A stretch of DNA of 64,000 nt from Diadema antillarum (Eukaryota). This document shows positions 18,375-24,300 of this stretch, piece by piece. Position numbers: made by a program. The stretch's first letter is position 1. The number at the start of each line of letters is the position of its first letter. The stretch covers positions 868,001 to 932,000 of the forward strand of contig NW_027271188.1 of assembly GCF_040938485.1 (NCBI RefSeq). The letters are read 5' to 3'.

Positions 18375-21300
18375 TGATTGATCCATACACATACAAGTTA
18401 AGGTTGTACCTGTTATGATTTCTCTGCCAGCCTTAGTATTTTTGAGCAGTACTCTTTTCAATCTGAAATATTGAAAGGAGTAGAAATCCAGTCGTACATT
18501 GCTGTGATGATGTAACTCACTTAGGACACCTGATGAGTGTTGCATTGATATAAACATGAGTTATTACTTCTGAGCAATGGCAGACACAAGAAGGATCTTT
18601 GGCAAAGAGTTATCGTGATTACTCAACCAAGTCATTTCATAGTTTGTAAAATCCTGAAAGTTAGCCTCACATTTTTTTTTTTTAACAGAGGTGTAGTGAT
18701 ACAAACTTTAGATTGATGCAAATTTTGTTGCAGTCAAGTGACAGAGATAATTGTAGCATTCATATCCATTCAATTGTATCACATAGATCTGTTCAAAGCA
18801 GCTTGAATGATATGTAGGATGATTTGCATTATTTAGGGACATATAAGTAGTCTTTCGTCAAGGTTTGTAAAACATCTCTTATCATGAATCACATACTAGA
18901 CACATACCTGGTAGTGTATTCTTGATGAATGCGAGTTTGTGTACTACGCATGTCAGTGACTAAAACACAGTCTGAGGGGGTAATGTCTTACGTGCATTGC
19001 TGTTGCATGTCATCTGATAACTACCAATCCTCTCTTGATCATTTGTCCTTGCTTTCCTAAGGTTGATGAGAACGGAAAGATCACTCGTCTCCGCCGTGAG
19101 TGCCCCAGTGATGACTGTGGAGCTGGCGTCTTCATGGCCTCCCACTTCGACCGCCAGTACTGCGGAAAGTGCTGCCTCACATACGTCTACAACAAGCCAG
19201 GAGAGAAGTAGAACTGACCCGGCAAAATTTCTCACGCACAGACCTCCAAATGCGCACTCTCATCACACAGTCTCATTCATTTACTTGTCATGTAAATTGT
19301 CATTGAAGCAAATCTGGACATCGCCTCCAATCTTGTGAGCCCCAAAACATGAAGATCACTCCCCATATGTAGCCATCTGCATGATGAACAACATTCGTGT
19401 ACAATAAAAGATACAATCCAATGTATTGATGTGAATATGAGTTTTTACTCCTGTGTTATCTTGTGTTTACCTGTTTGCTGGGGTGAACAGAGAAGAGAGA
19501 AGTGCCAATTTAGAAGTTCTTGAAAAAGTCAAGCGGGCAGACTGAATGTGGAGTTCAGTATGTGTATATAGTAAATGATGGAATGTGGAAATGAATGGAT
19601 AGTCATCTTTGTATGCCTCTTAATCAATTTAGAGATGCGCAAACACATTGGTGCATCATCCACCTTTGAACAAGATTCATAAAAATCATGTATGCAACTT
19701 ATGTAGCATTATTTAATATCTCTCAAACATGAAATCTTGGAGTACAGTACTTTATCCGTTATTCATATCCTTGCTGAAATACTGTACGTTCAACAGTCTT
19801 CACTTTTTTCCCTTTATTCTCACACAAGGTTCAAACATTTTGAAAATGTTTTGATACATGTATTTATTTGAAGGACAAGAGTTGTAGTCTTGATAATTTT
19901 TGGAAGCCCAGTTTTCAACTCACTGCAAGTACTTTTAATGTGCTGCAGTTAAGTACTTGGTAAAACTGAAAAATATGTGCTGTGATCATTTGTGCTGCTT
20001 AATGATTGTGGAGCTGCTGCTGCACAAGCTTGTTTACACTGTCCGTCTTGTGATTACTGTCATTACATTTGCCAAGAAGGGTTAATTTTAGATTTTGCTC
20101 GTGGCAAGCTAGACCTTAATCTGCATGGCACAACAAAGTGCCAACGTTGTCTCAGAGAGGATATGTATGAGGATTACAAGGGGGGGGGGGGGGGGGGGAG
20201 GAGTTGTGTGAGTGTGATCGGCTGGGGTGATAGGAGGTGAAAGGATGTATCTGAGGAGGGTTGTGCCTGTAAATGTGATCCGTAATATGGACTGGCCTTG
20301 AGGGGGGATATGACATCTATTGCCTGAAGTAGAATTGTATTGCCTGTGTCAAAGACAAGGGCAATGTGATTCTAGTTAGGGCAATTTATGTTGTATCCCG
20401 TGAAAGTAGCCAGTCATTATTATTATTATTATAATTACCCACATCAGGCATCTTGAGCAGTAATAGAAATTGGTAAAATGTAAGCTTCTTAGAGTTTCCT
20501 GATAACAAATTTCCACTTGGTGCCAGCCCGAGCTCTACACCACTCTGCTGCATCCACAAGCATGCACACAAAACTCGGGCAAGCGACACGCATATACAGT
20601 ACAGTTACACAAACACTTAAACACCAAAGGCTGCAGCGATTGTCTTCTGTGTTTTTTAACATATGGGAGATTGCCCTCTGTCACGAAACTTATCAACCGC
20701 AAACTTTCATCACCAAGTGTTTAAGTGGCTGAATGCTACATTCGCCTCCTTCACATGTACTCGAAGGGATATATTTTCTACTGCAAAGCTTTCATAGATT
20801 CTATATCCATCGTGCACATACAAAACTCACATCCTACTGACCACACATCTGTACTGTAAAGCAAACAGAACTTCACACTAAGTACTCTCCAGTCAGACCT
20901 GAAGTAACTTTTTTTGGTCTCGATGTAGGCACAAGACTAAACAGGAGTTTGTGTGTTCCCCTTATCTAAGTACAGTTGTGAAACAAGACTAGACACTACA
21001 AATCCTTGTTTATTAGTTTATTTCATAGTTCTTCTGTAATATACCTTTTTTGATACAAATTTGCACTGGATTCTTCCATTTTGTGGGGGGCACATACGTG
21101 TATTAAAATTCATGGACATTTCATGGAAGTGAACTTTCGCTTGGCCAAGGTGGATGGGCAAAAAATTGTCCAAGTATACAACAGTGAGGTTTAAAGTGAA
21201 AACTAAGTTTCGGTAAGTGCTTGAGAACCCGTCTAGCACCATTTCATTTTTTCTTGCAATATATCGAAAGAGTCCACTAAGAAACTTACCTGGCTGACGC

Positions 21301-24300
21301 GGTTTGCCGGAATGATGAGTCGGTTTGGAGTATTTTGAGAAAAATAATAATAGTAGGAAAACCGACTTTTATTCCAGAAGGCTCCAGACTGACTCGGTCT
21401 CGGGGGAAAAATTCGACCCTACTTCAGACAATTCACACGCAGTTCGTGATCGCCACCTTCTACTGGCCACTGCATAATACCAAATGAGGCCTAACTGAAT
21501 GGACAGGAAAGTGCGTGCTAAAGTAATCCTTACAAACAAAACAAAAATGACAGCGCGCGGTCCTCAGTTGCTGAGACGCGCGGTCTTTGGAGTTTTTGTT
21601 GTTGTTTCGGCGCACACTAATTTTGCATGCGCGCAAAAGAGGTTTTTGATGCGCGCGTTGTAACAACTCGGACCATTACTGCGAGTAGCCAGAACACGAA
21701 GCGCTAGTTTATACAGGCCGCTCCCACAGGACAACACTGTACAATCAGAGGGACAACCATTACAACTCATCCCGCCGTCACAAAGCGAAGCCGAGTTATC
21801 CCCGAGTCCGAGTTTAGTAGCCTGACCCCGTTCGGGTAAGTTCTGGGACTGAACCTTTTTGGTTAATATTTCGCATTTTTGTCGTTACCCATTGAATATC
21901 TTGTCATAACATCGTTATCCTGCACATTTCCTAAGCATACGTTCACATTTGGGAGCGAAATTTGACAACTTTTGCAGGCGTACCAGAACTTTGTTTGGGC
22001 TTTAAGAACAAATGTATACTGTAAAACGAGGAATGTTCACGTGCATTTTAATTTCGCGAATTTCGCGAGCGCCAAGATTCGCGAAATTAAAATGCACACG
22101 AAAATTCTTGTCTACACTATATGCATTGAATGCCAGTGGCATTTCGCGAAAATTTCATGCCGCAAAAAAAGCCGTCGGCTCCAATTTGCGAAAAATTCAT
22201 GCCGCGATTATATCATGTTTTACAGTACTCCATGCAATGAATGTGGTCTCCTGAGGCAAGCATCTTACAAGGCATAAAACCTTTTGAATATTTCAAAGAA
22301 CAAAGTTTAAAATGATTTACCATTTAAACTTTCTCCCTTTACTTGCTATATCTTTGTTACAAGACTGAACGAACAGGGAAATGAATGGTCAAGTATACTT
22401 GTACATATTACACATGTACCCAATGGCACACAAACATGTGGCGTATAATGCATCCCGTCACACACAAAGCAAAGATGTTACAGTTGCTGTGTAGTTTACG
22501 CAAGTTTTACAGTTGTAGCACGAGTGTACAGCATACTATCTATCAATCTTTGGATGGTAATAGATGTGGGCATAAAGGATTCTTTGGCTATGATTAGTGA
22601 ATGCTCACACTCTCCGTATGGATGTTAGGAATTGCTTAAAAGCTTGTTAATGGGAATGAGAAGAATATTCTGCCAGTGCCCAACCTCCCCCCCCCCCCCA
22701 TTTCTGTCTCTCTCTATCTCTCTCTCCTCAATGCTTACACAAGTATAACAAACATGAATTGAATATTCATACTAAATGGATCGTTTCACTGGGAGTTAAC
22801 AGTTTCACATTTACAAACGTACTGTTCAAAATACAATAAACATCACACAAGTTGGACTAAAGAAAATCTGTCAATTAATACCAAACTGTTGACTTATGTT
22901 GAAGTCAACCAAAGGAAAGGAAAATTGAGACTTCTTAACTGTGTCAACTTATGTGAGGTTTACTGTACTCTATATCTGACAAAAACAAAGACATGCTATC
23001 AGGATAACTGTCATCCGCAAGTGAGGCCCAATGTGTCCTGACCATCTGTAGTCCTACATCTGTGTTTTTATGTAGCACCTGTGGGTATATTATGTTTTAT
23101 CAAGATTCATTATAAAGAAAACATTCTCATAACCCCACAAATCTCATTATAATGGAGTTTGCCTGTATTAAATTGCTTTTATTTGCCAAATGATAGACAA
23201 AGATAGCATAATGTTCAGTCTATAAATAGTCTCATAAAATACAAGCATGATGTGAGATCCCTCAGCTCAGGCCAACAAGAGAACCATAATGTGGCCCGGA
23301 AATCCCTTCCCATTCCAGACTGGCATTCCAGTTCCTACTGTGTCAAAACTGCAATCCATGACTCAGTCTAAGCACCAGCATAGTCCAGATCAACATCTTA
23401 CTTTTAATTTCAGAACAGAATTTCAGGTCTCAGCTCCAGCTGGATACCAAGGTCCCAGTCTCAACAAAAAATGTATATCTCTGTCAAGACTTGAAGACCT
23501 GGTCAATGTCAGACCAAAAAATTCTATTCTGGACTGCGCATAGAGGTTCAAGCTCAGACTGGAAATCGAGGCCCTGTGACATTCCACAGGAGAAGCCACG
23601 GTCGAGTCCAAACTTGAAAGCTGAATTTTAGAGTCCAGGCTAGACAAATAGAACCCAGACAACACTAGAAGTCCAGATCCCAGTCCACCTCCTGAGGAAT
23701 CTGCTCCAGTTCGTAGCAGACGATGGTGTCTCCCGACTGGTACTCCAGTTGCTCCTCAAATCTCAGCCCACACTCCGAGCCATTCTTCACTGTGTTGACA
23801 TCATCCTTGTGGTGCTTCAGGGAGGCCAGGGGACCTGTGGGTCACATGACACAAATACAGCACAGTGCACCCCCGTTCTAACAAACACGATTATAACGAA
23901 ATTCCGGTTACAACAAAGCAAAAATTCAGGCTGCAACATTATCCACTCTATGTATTTTTAATGTTTATTTGTTCGGTTATAATGAAATTTCGATATAACA
24001 AAAGAAAACTGCCGGTCCCGAGGACTTCGTTATAACAGGAGTCCACTGTACATCACTAATGGCAATTCAACAATCTCTGCAGAAAACCAGCAGTTACATT
24101 TCCGCAGCATTTTGTTATGTTCGTTTTTGTTTTTGCTTTTGTTTTTTTTTTGCAGAAAATACTGTCCTGAACTTAATGCCAGGGAAAGAGAATTACATAA
24201 TCCTGATCTCTCGTATCACACCAGCTTTTAGAGTAGACTGCTTTAGTGATACACCTACATGGGTTTGTCTAATCTGTACCATGATCAAGTTTGAGGAAAA

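What the first reader, a model, noticed from the sequence alone, without database searches (positions are those of the whole stretch)
19810..22860. Unexplained divergent pair of spliced, apparently non-coding transcripts from a CpG island between RPS27A and MTIF2
Seen: a CpG island (~21290-21840) bounded by two GTAAGT donors pointing outward (minus 21289, plus 21836). On the minus strand there follow a 23-nt micro-exon (20831-20853) and a 60-nt exon (20439-20498) with good acceptors and donors, then AATAAA at 19813/19863. On the plus strand there are candidate acceptors at 21977 and 22363 and AATAAA at 22835. Both predicted units end before the poly(A) signals of RPS27A (19403) and MTIF2 (minus, 23178), so they tile the gap without overlap. 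No ORF resembles a known protein. Inference: a bidirectional lncRNA, small-RNA-host or micropeptide locus, with short exons like those of snoRNA host genes. This is the strongest candidate for an undescribed unit in the window.
Basis: partly seen in the sequence, partly recalled or inferred. Interest (0 to 1): 0.65.

Follow-up and report, generated by a model that had tools for sequence, protein, structure and literature searches.

The report
Promoter-like CpG block between two urchin genes
In a sea-urchin genome, the gap between the RPS27A and MTIF2 genes holds a small CpG-rich block that looks like a two-way promoter for short non-coding RNAs, but sequence alone cannot show that it is used.

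Summary
The window is from a diadematoid sea urchin, not human: MTIF2 exons are 92-100% identical to the Diadema setosum protein.

What holds up:
- The CpG-rich block is real: o/e 1.13 at 21201-22009, against a window median of 0.36.
- Its two outward 5' splice sites are very strong, at 12.7 and 11.0 bits. They are the only divergent pair of sites of 11 bits or more within 1 kb in 64 kb.
- Each is preceded by about 186 nt without ATG.
- The block shares a rare motif pair with the RPS27A promoter edge.

What does not hold up:
- The block's right tail (22016-22228) is a MITE with other copies in the window.
- The micro-exon, the 60-nt exon and the 22363 acceptor score no better than chance.
- No snoRNA lies in the proposed introns.
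- No ORF has a real homologue or a confident fold.

New: 20303-20402 (+) is the most stable local hairpin in the window.

Verdict: a probable orphan bidirectional promoter for short non-coding RNAs. The exon models are unproven and no transcript data were reachable. Interest is modest.

The parts
21201..22009 (.). CpG-rich block that looks like a non-methylated island; this is the core of the finding
   Evidence: GC 0.454 and CpG o/e 1.13 with 47 CpG. Flanks are 0.34 and 0.29 and the window median is 0.36. Apart from 21254-21337, it has no second copy in the window.
21610..21630 (+). Composite motif: GCGCACA, 5 nt, then TTTGCATGC (octamer-like). Two TGCGC half-sites lie at about 21627 and 21649.
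   Evidence: TTTGCATGC occurs twice in the window, at 13248 and 21622. GCGCACA occurs on the plus strand at 13241 and 21610 only. The full NRF1 consensus GCGCATGCGC occurs 0 times in the window. The consensus itself comes from passages of PMC10810270.
21290..21475 (-). Candidate first exon of the minus unit. Its 5' end is unknown. It ends at the donor CAG|GTAAGT, with the G at 21289.
   Evidence: The donor scores 12.7 bits, second highest of the 17 sites of 11 bits or more in the window. There are 186 nt without ATG upstream of it. An AATAAA lies inside at 21373.
21650..21835 (+). Candidate first exon of the plus unit. Its 5' end is unknown. It ends at the donor CGG|GTAAGT at 21836.
   Evidence: The donor scores 11.0 bits. 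There are 187 nt without ATG upstream. Over 21650-22011 the plus strand has 0 ATG against 10 on the minus strand.
21254..21337 (.). 84-nt segment that spans the minus donor and has a diverged copy in an RPS27A intron
   Evidence: 72.6% identity to 15496-15420, E 2e-7. All four CpG sites that differ read TpG or CpA in the intron copy, and GTAAGT reads GCAAGT there.
20831..20853 (-).
   Evidence: Acceptor 7.9 bits and donor 8.0 bits. A pairing of this quality is expected about 0.2 times in 1.5 kb, by my estimate from the densities.
20439..20498 (-).
   Evidence: Acceptor 2.9 bits and donor 4.0 bits. This is weak and at chance level.
20303..20402 (+). Exceptionally stable hairpin; candidate pre-miRNA or foldback element
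   Evidence: -52.7 kcal/mol, the lowest of all local folds of 100 nt or less on both strands of the window. z = -7.7, with 0 of 200 shuffles as stable. 41 bp with 7 G.U pairs on the plus strand and 0 A.C mismatches; the minus strand gives -37 kcal/mol. Only sub-threshold generic miRNA-model hits, 10 of 12 on the plus strand.
22016..22228 (.). MITE-like element inside the proposed plus unit
   Evidence: Terminal inverted repeats ATACTGTAAAAC and GTTTTACAGTAC. Copies at 2587-2718 and about 27190-27415. Internal palindrome of -41 to -44 kcal/mol. CpG o/e 2.02. 6 of the 10 weak Rfam hits in the region fall on it.
21978..22015 (+).
   Evidence: Acceptor 6.9 bits. It runs into the MITE after 38 nt. 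The alternative acceptor at 22363 scores 2.6 bits.
19813..19868 (-). Two minus-strand AATAAA signals proposed as the 3' end of the minus unit
   Evidence: Further minus-strand signals lie at 21373, 21022, 21014, 19939 and 19717.
22835..22840 (+). Plus-strand AATAAA proposed as the 3' end of the plus unit
   Evidence: An earlier ATTAAA at 22086 lies inside the MITE.
21021..21368 (-). Longest open frame in the gap: 116 codons from stop to stop, and 74 codons from the ATG at 21242
   Evidence: No Pfam family above cutoff. The 3 HMMER hits are repeat artefacts. AF2 pLDDT 54.2 and pTM 0.25. Atlas best score 0.76.
21307..21404 (+). Stem-loop with C-box-like and D-box-like motifs; considered as a snoRNA and rejected
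   Evidence: -38.6 kcal/mol, z = -4.9. It is 1 of the 4 C/D-pattern hits in the window. No C/D model of Rfam matches it. The strong stem overlaps both boxes.

Best explanation
The 3.7-kb gap between the convergent genes RPS27A and MTIF2 holds a block of about 0.8 kb that has escaped CpG decay in an otherwise CpG-depleted stretch of genome.

I read it as an orphan bidirectional RNA polymerase II promoter. Inferred steps:
- Transcription factors that bind the GC-rich core keep the block unmethylated in the germ line. Candidate sites are the two TGCGC half-sites and the octamer-like TTTGCATGC.
- Transcription starts in both directions.
- Each nascent RNA meets a near-consensus U1 site, CAG|GTAAGT at 21289 (-) and CGG|GTAAGT at 21836 (+), within about 100-190 nt. 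By the known U1/poly(A)-signal logic of promoter directionality, such a site favours elongation over early termination.
- The products are most likely short non-coding RNAs that end before, or within, the 3' ends of the neighbouring genes.

Shown: the CpG contrast, the donor strengths, the ATG-free leaders, the shared motif, and the lack of coding evidence.

Not shown: start sites, any splice junction, any expression.
For: - CpG o/e is 1.13 in 21201-22009, against 0.34 and 0.29 in the flanks and a window median of 0.36.
- The 84-nt copy in a methylation-decayed RPS27A intron differs at CpG sites by TpG/CpA. This fits protection of the block from methylation.
- The donors score 12.7 and 11.0 bits. 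Only 17 sites in 128 kb of strand sequence reach 11 bits. I judge about 5-7 of them to be true exon ends: three are mapped MTIF2 junctions, and the other calls rest on reading frames.
- This is the only divergent pair of sites of 11 bits or more within 1 kb (1 pair from 13 minus and 4 plus sites).
- 3 of the 26 GTAAGT hexamers in the window lie in 21213-21841.
- The ATG-free stretches are 187 and 186 nt. A random position in the window has P about 0.017 for each, or 0.089 each at the block's own ATG density.
- The pair GCGCACA and TTTGCATGC is found only here and at 13241-13256, at the edge of the RPS27A CpG block.
- The window holds another CpG block of similar layout, at 37001-37750. It carries a minus-strand donor of 11.7 bits at 37321 and lies between MTIF2 and an S9-peptidase gene.
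Against: - No transcript, CAGE or methylation data could be consulted.
- GC is 45-49%, below the classical 50% criterion.
- The donor pair by itself is expected 0.4-0.8 times per window (from the counts). The tests were chosen after seeing the data.
- Low ATG density is partly a by-product of preserved CpG, and lncRNAs have no known need for ATG-free leaders.
- The minus donor lies in a repeated 84-nt segment, and a MITE abuts the block. Mobile-element origin therefore remains possible.
- An AATAAA at 21373 lies upstream of the minus donor.
- The only related sequence found, P0025 from ENA, reads through the minus donor unspliced and ends at the TAA of GTAAGT. Its record type is unknown.
- The downstream exons are at chance level.
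- No intact NRF1 consensus is present.
Confidence: 0.45

Rival explanations
1. The block is an unmethylated or recently acquired piece of DNA with no stable spliced products. It could be a remnant of a mobile element, an enhancer or an insulator. Under this reading the splice-site matches are coincidental.
For: - The right tail is a MITE with CpG o/e 2.02, and another copy sits in its own CpG-rich patch at 27001-27750. CpG richness can therefore mark young insertions here.
- 21254-21337 is a repeat.
- The core contains a palindrome of about 100 nt at 21515-21614, -33.8 kcal/mol.
- P0025 differs from the window there by indels.
- The donor pair alone is not statistically rare.
- The internal exons are at chance level.
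Against: - No terminal inverted repeats or other element borders were found around 21201-22009.
- 21338-22009 has no second copy in 64 kb.
- The motif pair shared with the RPS27A promoter edge, the strand-specific ATG-free leaders and the two donors of 11 bits or more placed outward at its edges all fit a promoter better.
Confidence: 0.3
2. The functional element of the gap is a small-RNA hairpin at 20303-20402 read on the plus strand. It would be a new miRNA precursor processed from RPS27A read-through or from its own transcript. The CpG block would be unrelated to it, or secondary.
For: - It is the most stable local structure in the window, at -52.7 kcal/mol. z = -7.7, with 0 of 200 shuffles as stable.
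- It has 41 bp. With the weak 4-bp tip opened, that gives a stem of about 35 bp and an apical loop of about 13 nt.
- It has 7 G.U pairs and 0 A.C mismatches on the plus strand, two-sided binomial 0.016.
- There is no plus-strand poly(A) hexamer between 19403 and 21102.
- Generic miRNA models match on the plus strand: MIR828 28 bits, mir-33 22.9 bits.
Against: - All Rfam scores are far below gathering.
- No homologue could be examined, and no small-RNA data were reachable.
- The strand asymmetry is inflated by picking the most stable strand. Other top hairpins also show it, for example 4083-4182 with 5:0.
- Foldback elements give the same picture.
- Two arm motifs were not found in the main text of two sea-urchin miRNA papers. 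Their supplements were closed.
Confidence: 0.15
3. A small protein-coding gene starts at the block. The main candidate is the 74-codon ORF at 21242-21021 (-), read from an unspliced minus transcript. Its stop overlaps two AATAAA signals at 21022 and 21014.
For: - It lies within the longest open frame of the gap, 116 codons.
- Its ATG has G at -3 and G at +4.
- The leader upstream of the donor is ATG-free; one short ATG-started frame precedes the ORF.
- Poly(A) signals lie at the stop.
Against: - No Pfam family is above cutoff.
- In 1.84 billion representatives there are only 3 hits, all driven by one 24-residue chance match or by translated repeats.
- AF2 pLDDT is 54.2 and pTM 0.25, from a single sequence.
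- The Atlas best score is 0.76 with low recognition.
- A frame of 116 codons is expected about 0.2 times in the gap by my estimate.
- Across the block, a 172-codon frame in the close relative P0025 is broken by indels in the window. Open frames here are not conserved.
Confidence: 0.05
4. The two units are snoRNA host genes.
For: - The candidate exons are short.
- One C/D-like pattern lies at 21304-21400 (+). It is 1 of only 4 such patterns in 128 kb of strand sequence.
Against: - That pattern lies in the block, not in a proposed intron.
- No Rfam C/D model matches it even at E up to 10, whereas several generic models hit the snoRNAs in the RPS27A introns.
- Its strongest stem overlaps both boxes.
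- Its copy at 15420-15496 lacks the C box.
- My scan found no other C/D pattern in 19400-23200.
- H/ACA RNAs were tested only through Rfam.
Confidence: 0.03

Closest known systems
Bidirectional CpG-island promoters with divergent lncRNAs, whose directionality is set by U1 sites and poly(A) signals. This is described mainly in mammals. I recall the primary work. The search listing shows reviews on the topic (PMC5071671, PMC4085477), of which I saw listing and abstract only.
   Same: - An unmethylated-looking CpG-rich block.
- Strong 5' splice sites on both outward strands within a few hundred nt.
- No coding potential.
- Poly(A) hexamers further out.
   Different: - It lies between the 3' ends of two convergent genes, not at the 5' end of a coding gene. 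Both products would therefore be orphans.
- GC is below 50%.
- The host is an echinoderm, for which I found no description of such promoters (11 papers held the three terms, and none of the 10 listed is about sea-urchin divergent lncRNAs).
- Activity is not shown.
snoRNA host genes such as GAS5/SNHG, and ribosomal-protein genes that host snoRNAs
   Same: Short candidate exons with non-coding spacers.
   Different: No intronic snoRNA was found in the proposed units. In this window the host is RPS27A, with two paralogous C/D snoRNAs in its introns.
Animal pri-miRNA hairpins
   Same: The hairpin at 20303-20402 has a stem of about 35-41 bp, an apical region that can open to about 13 nt, and very low free energy.
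   Different: - It matches no known family: best Rfam scores are 28 and 22.9 bits against gathering scores of 69 and 50.
- There is no read evidence and no conservation test.
MITEs (miniature inverted-repeat transposable elements)
   Same: 22016-22228 is 213 bp. Its terminal inverted repeats match at 11 of 12 positions. It has an internal palindrome, no credible ORF, and two further copies in the window.
   Different: The target-site duplication is not clear and the superfamily was not assigned.

Membership tests
CpG island (classical criteria as I recall them: length of 200 bp or more, GC of 50% or more, observed/expected CpG of 0.6 or more) | Length and observed/expected CpG | tested here: met
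   21201-22009 is 809 bp with o/e 1.13. 21290-21840 is 551 bp with o/e 1.16.
CpG island (classical criteria as I recall them: length of 200 bp or more, GC of 50% or more, observed/expected CpG of 0.6 or more) | GC content of 50% or more | tested here: not met
   GC is 0.454 to 0.488. This is above the window's 0.381 but below 0.50.
Non-methylated island / active promoter | Absence of DNA methylation in the germ line | not testable with these tools
   Only indirect evidence is available: CpG is preserved here but decayed to TpG/CpA in the paralogous 84-nt copy.
Bidirectional promoter | Two transcription start sites on opposite strands less than 1 kb apart | not testable with these tools
   No CAGE or RNA data were available. 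The surrogates are outward donors 546 nt apart and ATG-free leaders.
Spliced lncRNA | Splice junctions supported by transcripts | not testable with these tools
   Only motif scores are available. The single related record, P0025, is colinear with unspliced DNA across the minus donor.
Spliced lncRNA | Lack of coding potential | tested here: met
   - Pfam on the 10 longest frames gave 0 above cutoff.
- HMMER against 1.84 billion representatives gave only artefacts.
- Two word-index searches gave 1 near-identical unnamed record and 0 candidates.
- The AF2 model has low confidence.
- Joined exon models were not searched.
snoRNA host gene | A box C/D or H/ACA snoRNA inside an intron, in sense orientation | tested here: not met
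   - Rfam at gathering gave 0 matches in the window.
- At E up to 10, the only snoRNA-model hit in the proposed introns is GlsR9 at 20939-21015, 16.6 bits against a gathering score of 95.
- My own C/D scan found only 21304-21400, which lies outside the proposed introns.
miRNA gene | A stable hairpin of pri-miRNA dimensions | tested here: met
   20303-20402 (+): 41 bp, -52.7 kcal/mol, z = -7.7.
miRNA gene | Discrete reads of about 22 nt from both arms with 2-nt overhangs, and conservation | not testable with these tools
   No small-RNA data or related genomes were available. The hairpin does not belong to any Rfam family.
NRF1/P3A2-type promoter | Intact GCGCNTGCGC site | tested here: not met
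   GCGCATGCGC occurs 0 times in the window. Only GCATGCGC at 21625 (8 of 10 positions) and two TGCGC half-sites are present. I searched only the N=A form. The consensus comes from passages of PMC10810270.
MITE | Short non-coding element with terminal inverted repeats and several dispersed copies | tested here: met
   22016-22228, with terminal repeats matching at 11 of 12 positions. Copies lie at 2587-2718 (68%) and 27322-27410 (74%).

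The most novel reading that the evidence does not exclude
An orphan two-way promoter lodged between the tails of two convergent housekeeping genes serves as a small-RNA factory. Its minus transcript would run through the window's most stable hairpin (20303-20402). 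Its plus transcript would run through a MITE palindrome (22016-22228). Both arms would then feed hairpin RNAs into miRNA or endo-siRNA pathways. By running towards RPS27A and MTIF2, they might also modulate 3'-end formation of those genes.
Probability: 0.08. Interest if true: 0.5.

Novelty: new member of a known kind. Interest (0 to 1): 0.3.

Why it matters
If the block is active, it would be an example in an echinoderm of an orphan bidirectional promoter placed between two convergent housekeeping genes. It would show the same U1-site architecture known from mammalian divergent promoters. That would be a small data point on how old this architecture is, and a candidate lineage-specific lncRNA or small-RNA locus. 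It does not open a long-standing question. As it stands, it is an annotation lead that one stranded RNA-seq track would settle.

Tried and rejected
**Known RNA and protein families**
- Rfam at gathering on the whole window gave 0 matches. tRNA and tmRNA search gave 0.
- Rfam at E up to 10 on 19300-23400 gave 10 weak hits, 6 of them on the MITE palindrome.
- The mir-142-like hit at 20596-20678 (-) does not fold better than shuffles, z = +0.25.
I then sent the 10 longest frames singly. None was above cutoff; three were sub-threshold at E 0.039-0.22.

**Coding potential**
- The longest frame was searched against 1.84 billion representatives. It gave 3 hits, explained by a 24-residue match repeated in a bacterial repeat protein and by translated tandem repeats.
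- The Atlas gave a best score of 0.76. AF2 gave pLDDT 54.2.
- The frame inside the MITE gave no candidate. It therefore did not work as a control showing that repeats appear in the protein set.
- ORFs that would continue from the ATG of the 60-nt exon were measured for 11 candidate acceptors without joining any sequence. They run 0-70 codons through a poly-proline tract made by the G-run. I rejected them as coding.

**Other tests**
- The C/D candidate at 21304-21400 was rejected, for the reasons given under the snoRNA rival.
- Strand skews (G-C and T-A) were tried to infer which strand is transcribed in the flanks. Known introns give mean 0.026, sd 0.135, with 67% positive, from 18 windows of 900 nt, so the test is uninformative.
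- Looking for the block as a repeat gave only 21254-21337 with one copy in the window. A genome-wide copy number could not be obtained.
- The second large hairpin, 4083-4182, is unrelated in sequence to 20303-20402.

**Literature**
- I found nothing on this locus or on divergent lncRNAs in sea urchins.
- The two Diadema genome papers mention no miRNA, lncRNA or methylation in their main text (term searches).
- Two sea-urchin miRNA papers do not contain the hairpin arm motifs in their main text.

**Technical**

Full report
**Source and setting**

The window is not human.
- Its GC is 0.381 and its CpG o/e 0.45.
- One MTIF2 exon matches bovine and human mitochondrial IF2 chains of the PDB only as a distant relative, with E 5e-30 to 3e-28.
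- The same exon is 97% identical to the Diadema setosum protein, and 73-74% identical to those of Lytechinus and Strongylocentrotus.
- All 13 tblastn segments of that protein map colinearly to the minus strand from 36147 to 23668. Identity is 88-100% where exons are cleanly aligned.

The window therefore comes from a diadematoid sea urchin close to D. setosum. One run of N (40924-41069) was left alone.

RPS27A lies on the plus strand. Its coding exons are at 13697-13763, 16522-16576, 17686-17907 and about 19062-19208, and its AATAAA is at 19403. Pfam gives ubiquitin and Ribosomal_S27a. MTIF2 ends with a stop near 23665 and an AATAAA at 23183-23178 on the minus strand. The two genes are tail to tail with about 3.7 kb between their poly(A) signals.

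**Check of the observation**

Every motif is at the stated coordinate.

The CpG contrast is real:

| Segment | CpG o/e |
|---|---|
| 19430-21200 | 0.34 |
| 21201-22009 | 1.13 |
| 22010-22235 | 2.02 |
| 22236-23160 | 0.29 |

The median of all 500-nt windows is 0.36, and ten segments of the window reach 0.8. GC stays at 45-49%.

Two parts of the CpG-rich zone are repeats.
- 22016-22228 is a MITE-like element. It has terminal inverted repeats and an internal palindrome, and copies lie at 2587-2718 and about 27190-27415.
- 21254-21337, which carries the minus donor, has a 72.6% identical inverted copy at 15420-15496 inside an RPS27A intron.

In that intron copy, the CpG sites that differ read TpG or CpA, and GTAAGT reads GCAAGT. 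This is what one expects if the intron copy is methylated and the block is not.

**Are the splice signals more than chance?**

I scored donors and acceptors with a position weight matrix. Its frequencies I recalled approximately from general metazoan data. I calibrated it on 11 MTIF2 junctions. These were mapped from 12 introns examined; I dropped the one whose anchor was off. The real sites score as follows:
- Donors: 1.0 to 12.4 bits, median 6.9.
- Acceptors: -0.3 to 10.6 bits.

The candidate sites score as follows:

| Site | Score (bits) |
|---|---|
| Outward donor, minus (21290) | 12.7 |
| Outward donor, plus (21835) | 11.0 |
| Micro-exon acceptor / donor | 7.9 / 8.0 |
| 60-nt exon acceptor / donor | 2.9 / 4.0 |
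| Plus acceptor at 21978 | 6.9 |
| Plus acceptor at 22364 | 2.6 |

Only 17 sites in the 128 kb of both strands reach 11 bits. I judge about 5-7 of them to be true exon ends. The two donors are the only divergent pair of such sites within 1 kb. Three of the window's 26 GTAAGT hexamers lie in 21213-21841.

The pair alone is not rare. From 13 minus-strand and 4 plus-strand sites, I expect 0.4-0.8 such pairs per window. A pair that brackets one of the CpG-rich segments is expected about 0.05 times. These estimates were made after seeing the data.

Background density is 2.0 acceptors of 7 bits or more and 0.8 donors of 8 bits or more per kb per strand. The internal exons and the second plus acceptor are therefore what chance gives.

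**Further promoter-like features**

Upstream of each outward donor, the sense strand has no ATG for 187 nt (plus) and 186 nt (minus).
- For a random position in the window this has P about 0.017 each.
- At the block's own lower ATG density, it is 0.089 each.
- Over 21650-22011 the plus strand has 0 ATG against 10 on the minus strand.

The nonamer TTTGCATGC occurs twice in the window, and the heptamer GCGCACA occurs twice on the plus strand. The two are adjacent at 13241-13256, at the edge of the RPS27A CpG block, and 5 nt apart at 21610-21630.

The block holds two TGCGC half-sites but no intact NRF1 consensus (consensus from passages of PMC10810270).

A TATA-like TTTATAC at 21709 and possible start sites are my reading only.

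**Coding potential**

- The ten longest frames have no Pfam family above cutoff.
- The longest frame (116 codons, 21021-21368 minus) gave three hits among 1.84 billion representatives. One is a 24-residue match repeated in a bacterial repeat protein. Two are translated tandem repeats.
- Its 74-codon ATG-started part gives pLDDT 54.2 and pTM 0.25 without an alignment. Its best Atlas score is 0.76.
- The frame across the block (21567-21884 minus) found one unnamed ENA protein, P0025: 172 aa, on 2 contigs, the longest 1588 nt.

P0025 is colinear with 21770 to 21289 on the minus strand. It shows about 1% substitutions, plus indels that shift the frame. It ends at the TAA inside the GTAAGT donor. 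I draw three points from it:
- It comes from the same or a very close species.
- It shows that open frames here are not preserved.
- It reads through the donor unspliced. Whether it is genomic or transcript sequence is unknown.

The joined spliced models were neither built nor searched.

**Small RNAs**

No Rfam family reaches its gathering score anywhere in the window.

My C/D-box scan found four patterns in the whole window.
- One (18504) coincides with one of two SNORD58-like sub-threshold Rfam hits in RPS27A introns, at 17184-17263 and 18499-18578. These two are 88% identical paralogues with clear C, D', C' and D boxes. RPS27A is therefore the snoRNA host here.
- One (21304-21400, plus strand) lies in the block. 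No Rfam C/D model matches it. Its strong stem overlaps both boxes, and its copy in the intron lacks the C box. I reject it.

A scan of all local folds of 100 nt or less on both strands puts 20303-20402 (plus) first, at -52.7 kcal/mol.
- z = -7.7 against 200 dinucleotide shuffles.
- It has 41 bp with 7 G.U pairs and no A.C mismatch. The plus strand therefore folds much better than the minus strand (-37 kcal/mol).
- This asymmetry has a two-sided binomial probability of 0.016. It is inflated by picking the best strand, and other top hairpins also show it.
- It matches only generic miRNA models far below threshold.

The hairpin lies 0.9 kb downstream of the RPS27A poly(A) site, on the RPS27A strand. 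There is no plus-strand poly(A) hexamer between 19403 and 21102.

**Explanation**

The best reading is an orphan bidirectional promoter. It would be kept free of methylation and would launch two short non-coding RNAs. Their first exons end at the two strong U1 sites. Confidence is 0.45.

The main rival (0.3) is an unmethylated or recently acquired block without stable products. A plus-strand small-RNA hairpin (0.15) may coexist with either. A micropeptide gene (0.05) and a snoRNA host (0.03) are unlikely.

**What stayed unchecked**

- No eukaryotic DNA, transcript, small-RNA or methylation collection was reachable.
- Supplements of papers were closed, so published sea-urchin miRNA lists were not seen.
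- Literature searches found nothing on this locus.

**Verdict**

This is a reasonable annotation lead of a known kind, of modest interest. One stranded RNA-seq or CAGE track would decide it.

Noticed in passing
window 17184-17263 (+) and 18499-18578 (+): Two paralogous box C/D snoRNA candidates lie in consecutive RPS27A introns, in sense orientation. They are 88% identical, with C, D', C' and D boxes and a terminal stem. Rfam finds them only below threshold, as SNORD58-like at 28.7 and 26.3 bits.
   Followed up: partly
window 4083-4182 (+): This is a second very stable AT-rich hairpin: -47.4 kcal/mol on the plus strand against -31.5 on the minus strand, with 41 bp including 5 G.U pairs. It is unrelated in sequence to the hairpin at 20303-20402.
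   Followed up: partly
window 24251-25750, ORF 24840-25733 (-): A second CpG-rich block (o/e up to 1.2) lies inside an MTIF2 intron. It holds a 298-codon open frame on the MTIF2 strand, with no Pfam family and no usable Atlas hit.
   Followed up: partly
window 5978-6548 and 7487-8332: Tandem arrays of 161 nt (3.5 copies) and 158 nt (5.4 copies) lie upstream of RPS27A, next to CpG-rich patches. Their translations give repeated peptide-like frames, and the 158-nt array carries five donor-like TAG|GTGAGG sites.
   Followed up: no
window 14944-15225 (-): Rfam reports a sub-threshold match to the plant MITE-type family MIR8562, at 61.7 bits and E 1.4e-9, in an RPS27A intron. It is probably another palindromic mobile element.
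   Followed up: no
window 20180-20198 and 22687-22699; also 3113-3132, 3201-3220, 18263-18303, 32289-32310, 58380-58400: Long G or C homopolymer runs are frequent in this window. One G-run and one C-run flank the finding about 2.5 kb apart, in inverted orientation. Their flanks are not homologous.
   Followed up: partly
window 37001-37750: This CpG-rich block carries a strong minus-strand donor at 37321 (11.7 bits) upstream of the first MTIF2 coding exon. An S9-peptidase gene follows on the plus strand, with Pfam Peptidase_S9 at 46698-48327. It is probably a true bidirectional promoter and serves as an internal comparison.
   Followed up: partly
window 56705-56992 (-): This exon has a sub-threshold Rpb7-like N-terminal SHS2 domain match (Pfam 18.5 bits against a cutoff of 24.8), suggesting an RNA polymerase subunit gene.
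   Followed up: no
window 27190-27415 and 2587-2718: These are further copies of the MITE found at 22016-22228. The copy at 27190-27415 sits in its own CpG-rich patch inside an MTIF2 intron. The copy at 2587-2718 has lost its CpGs.
   Followed up: partly
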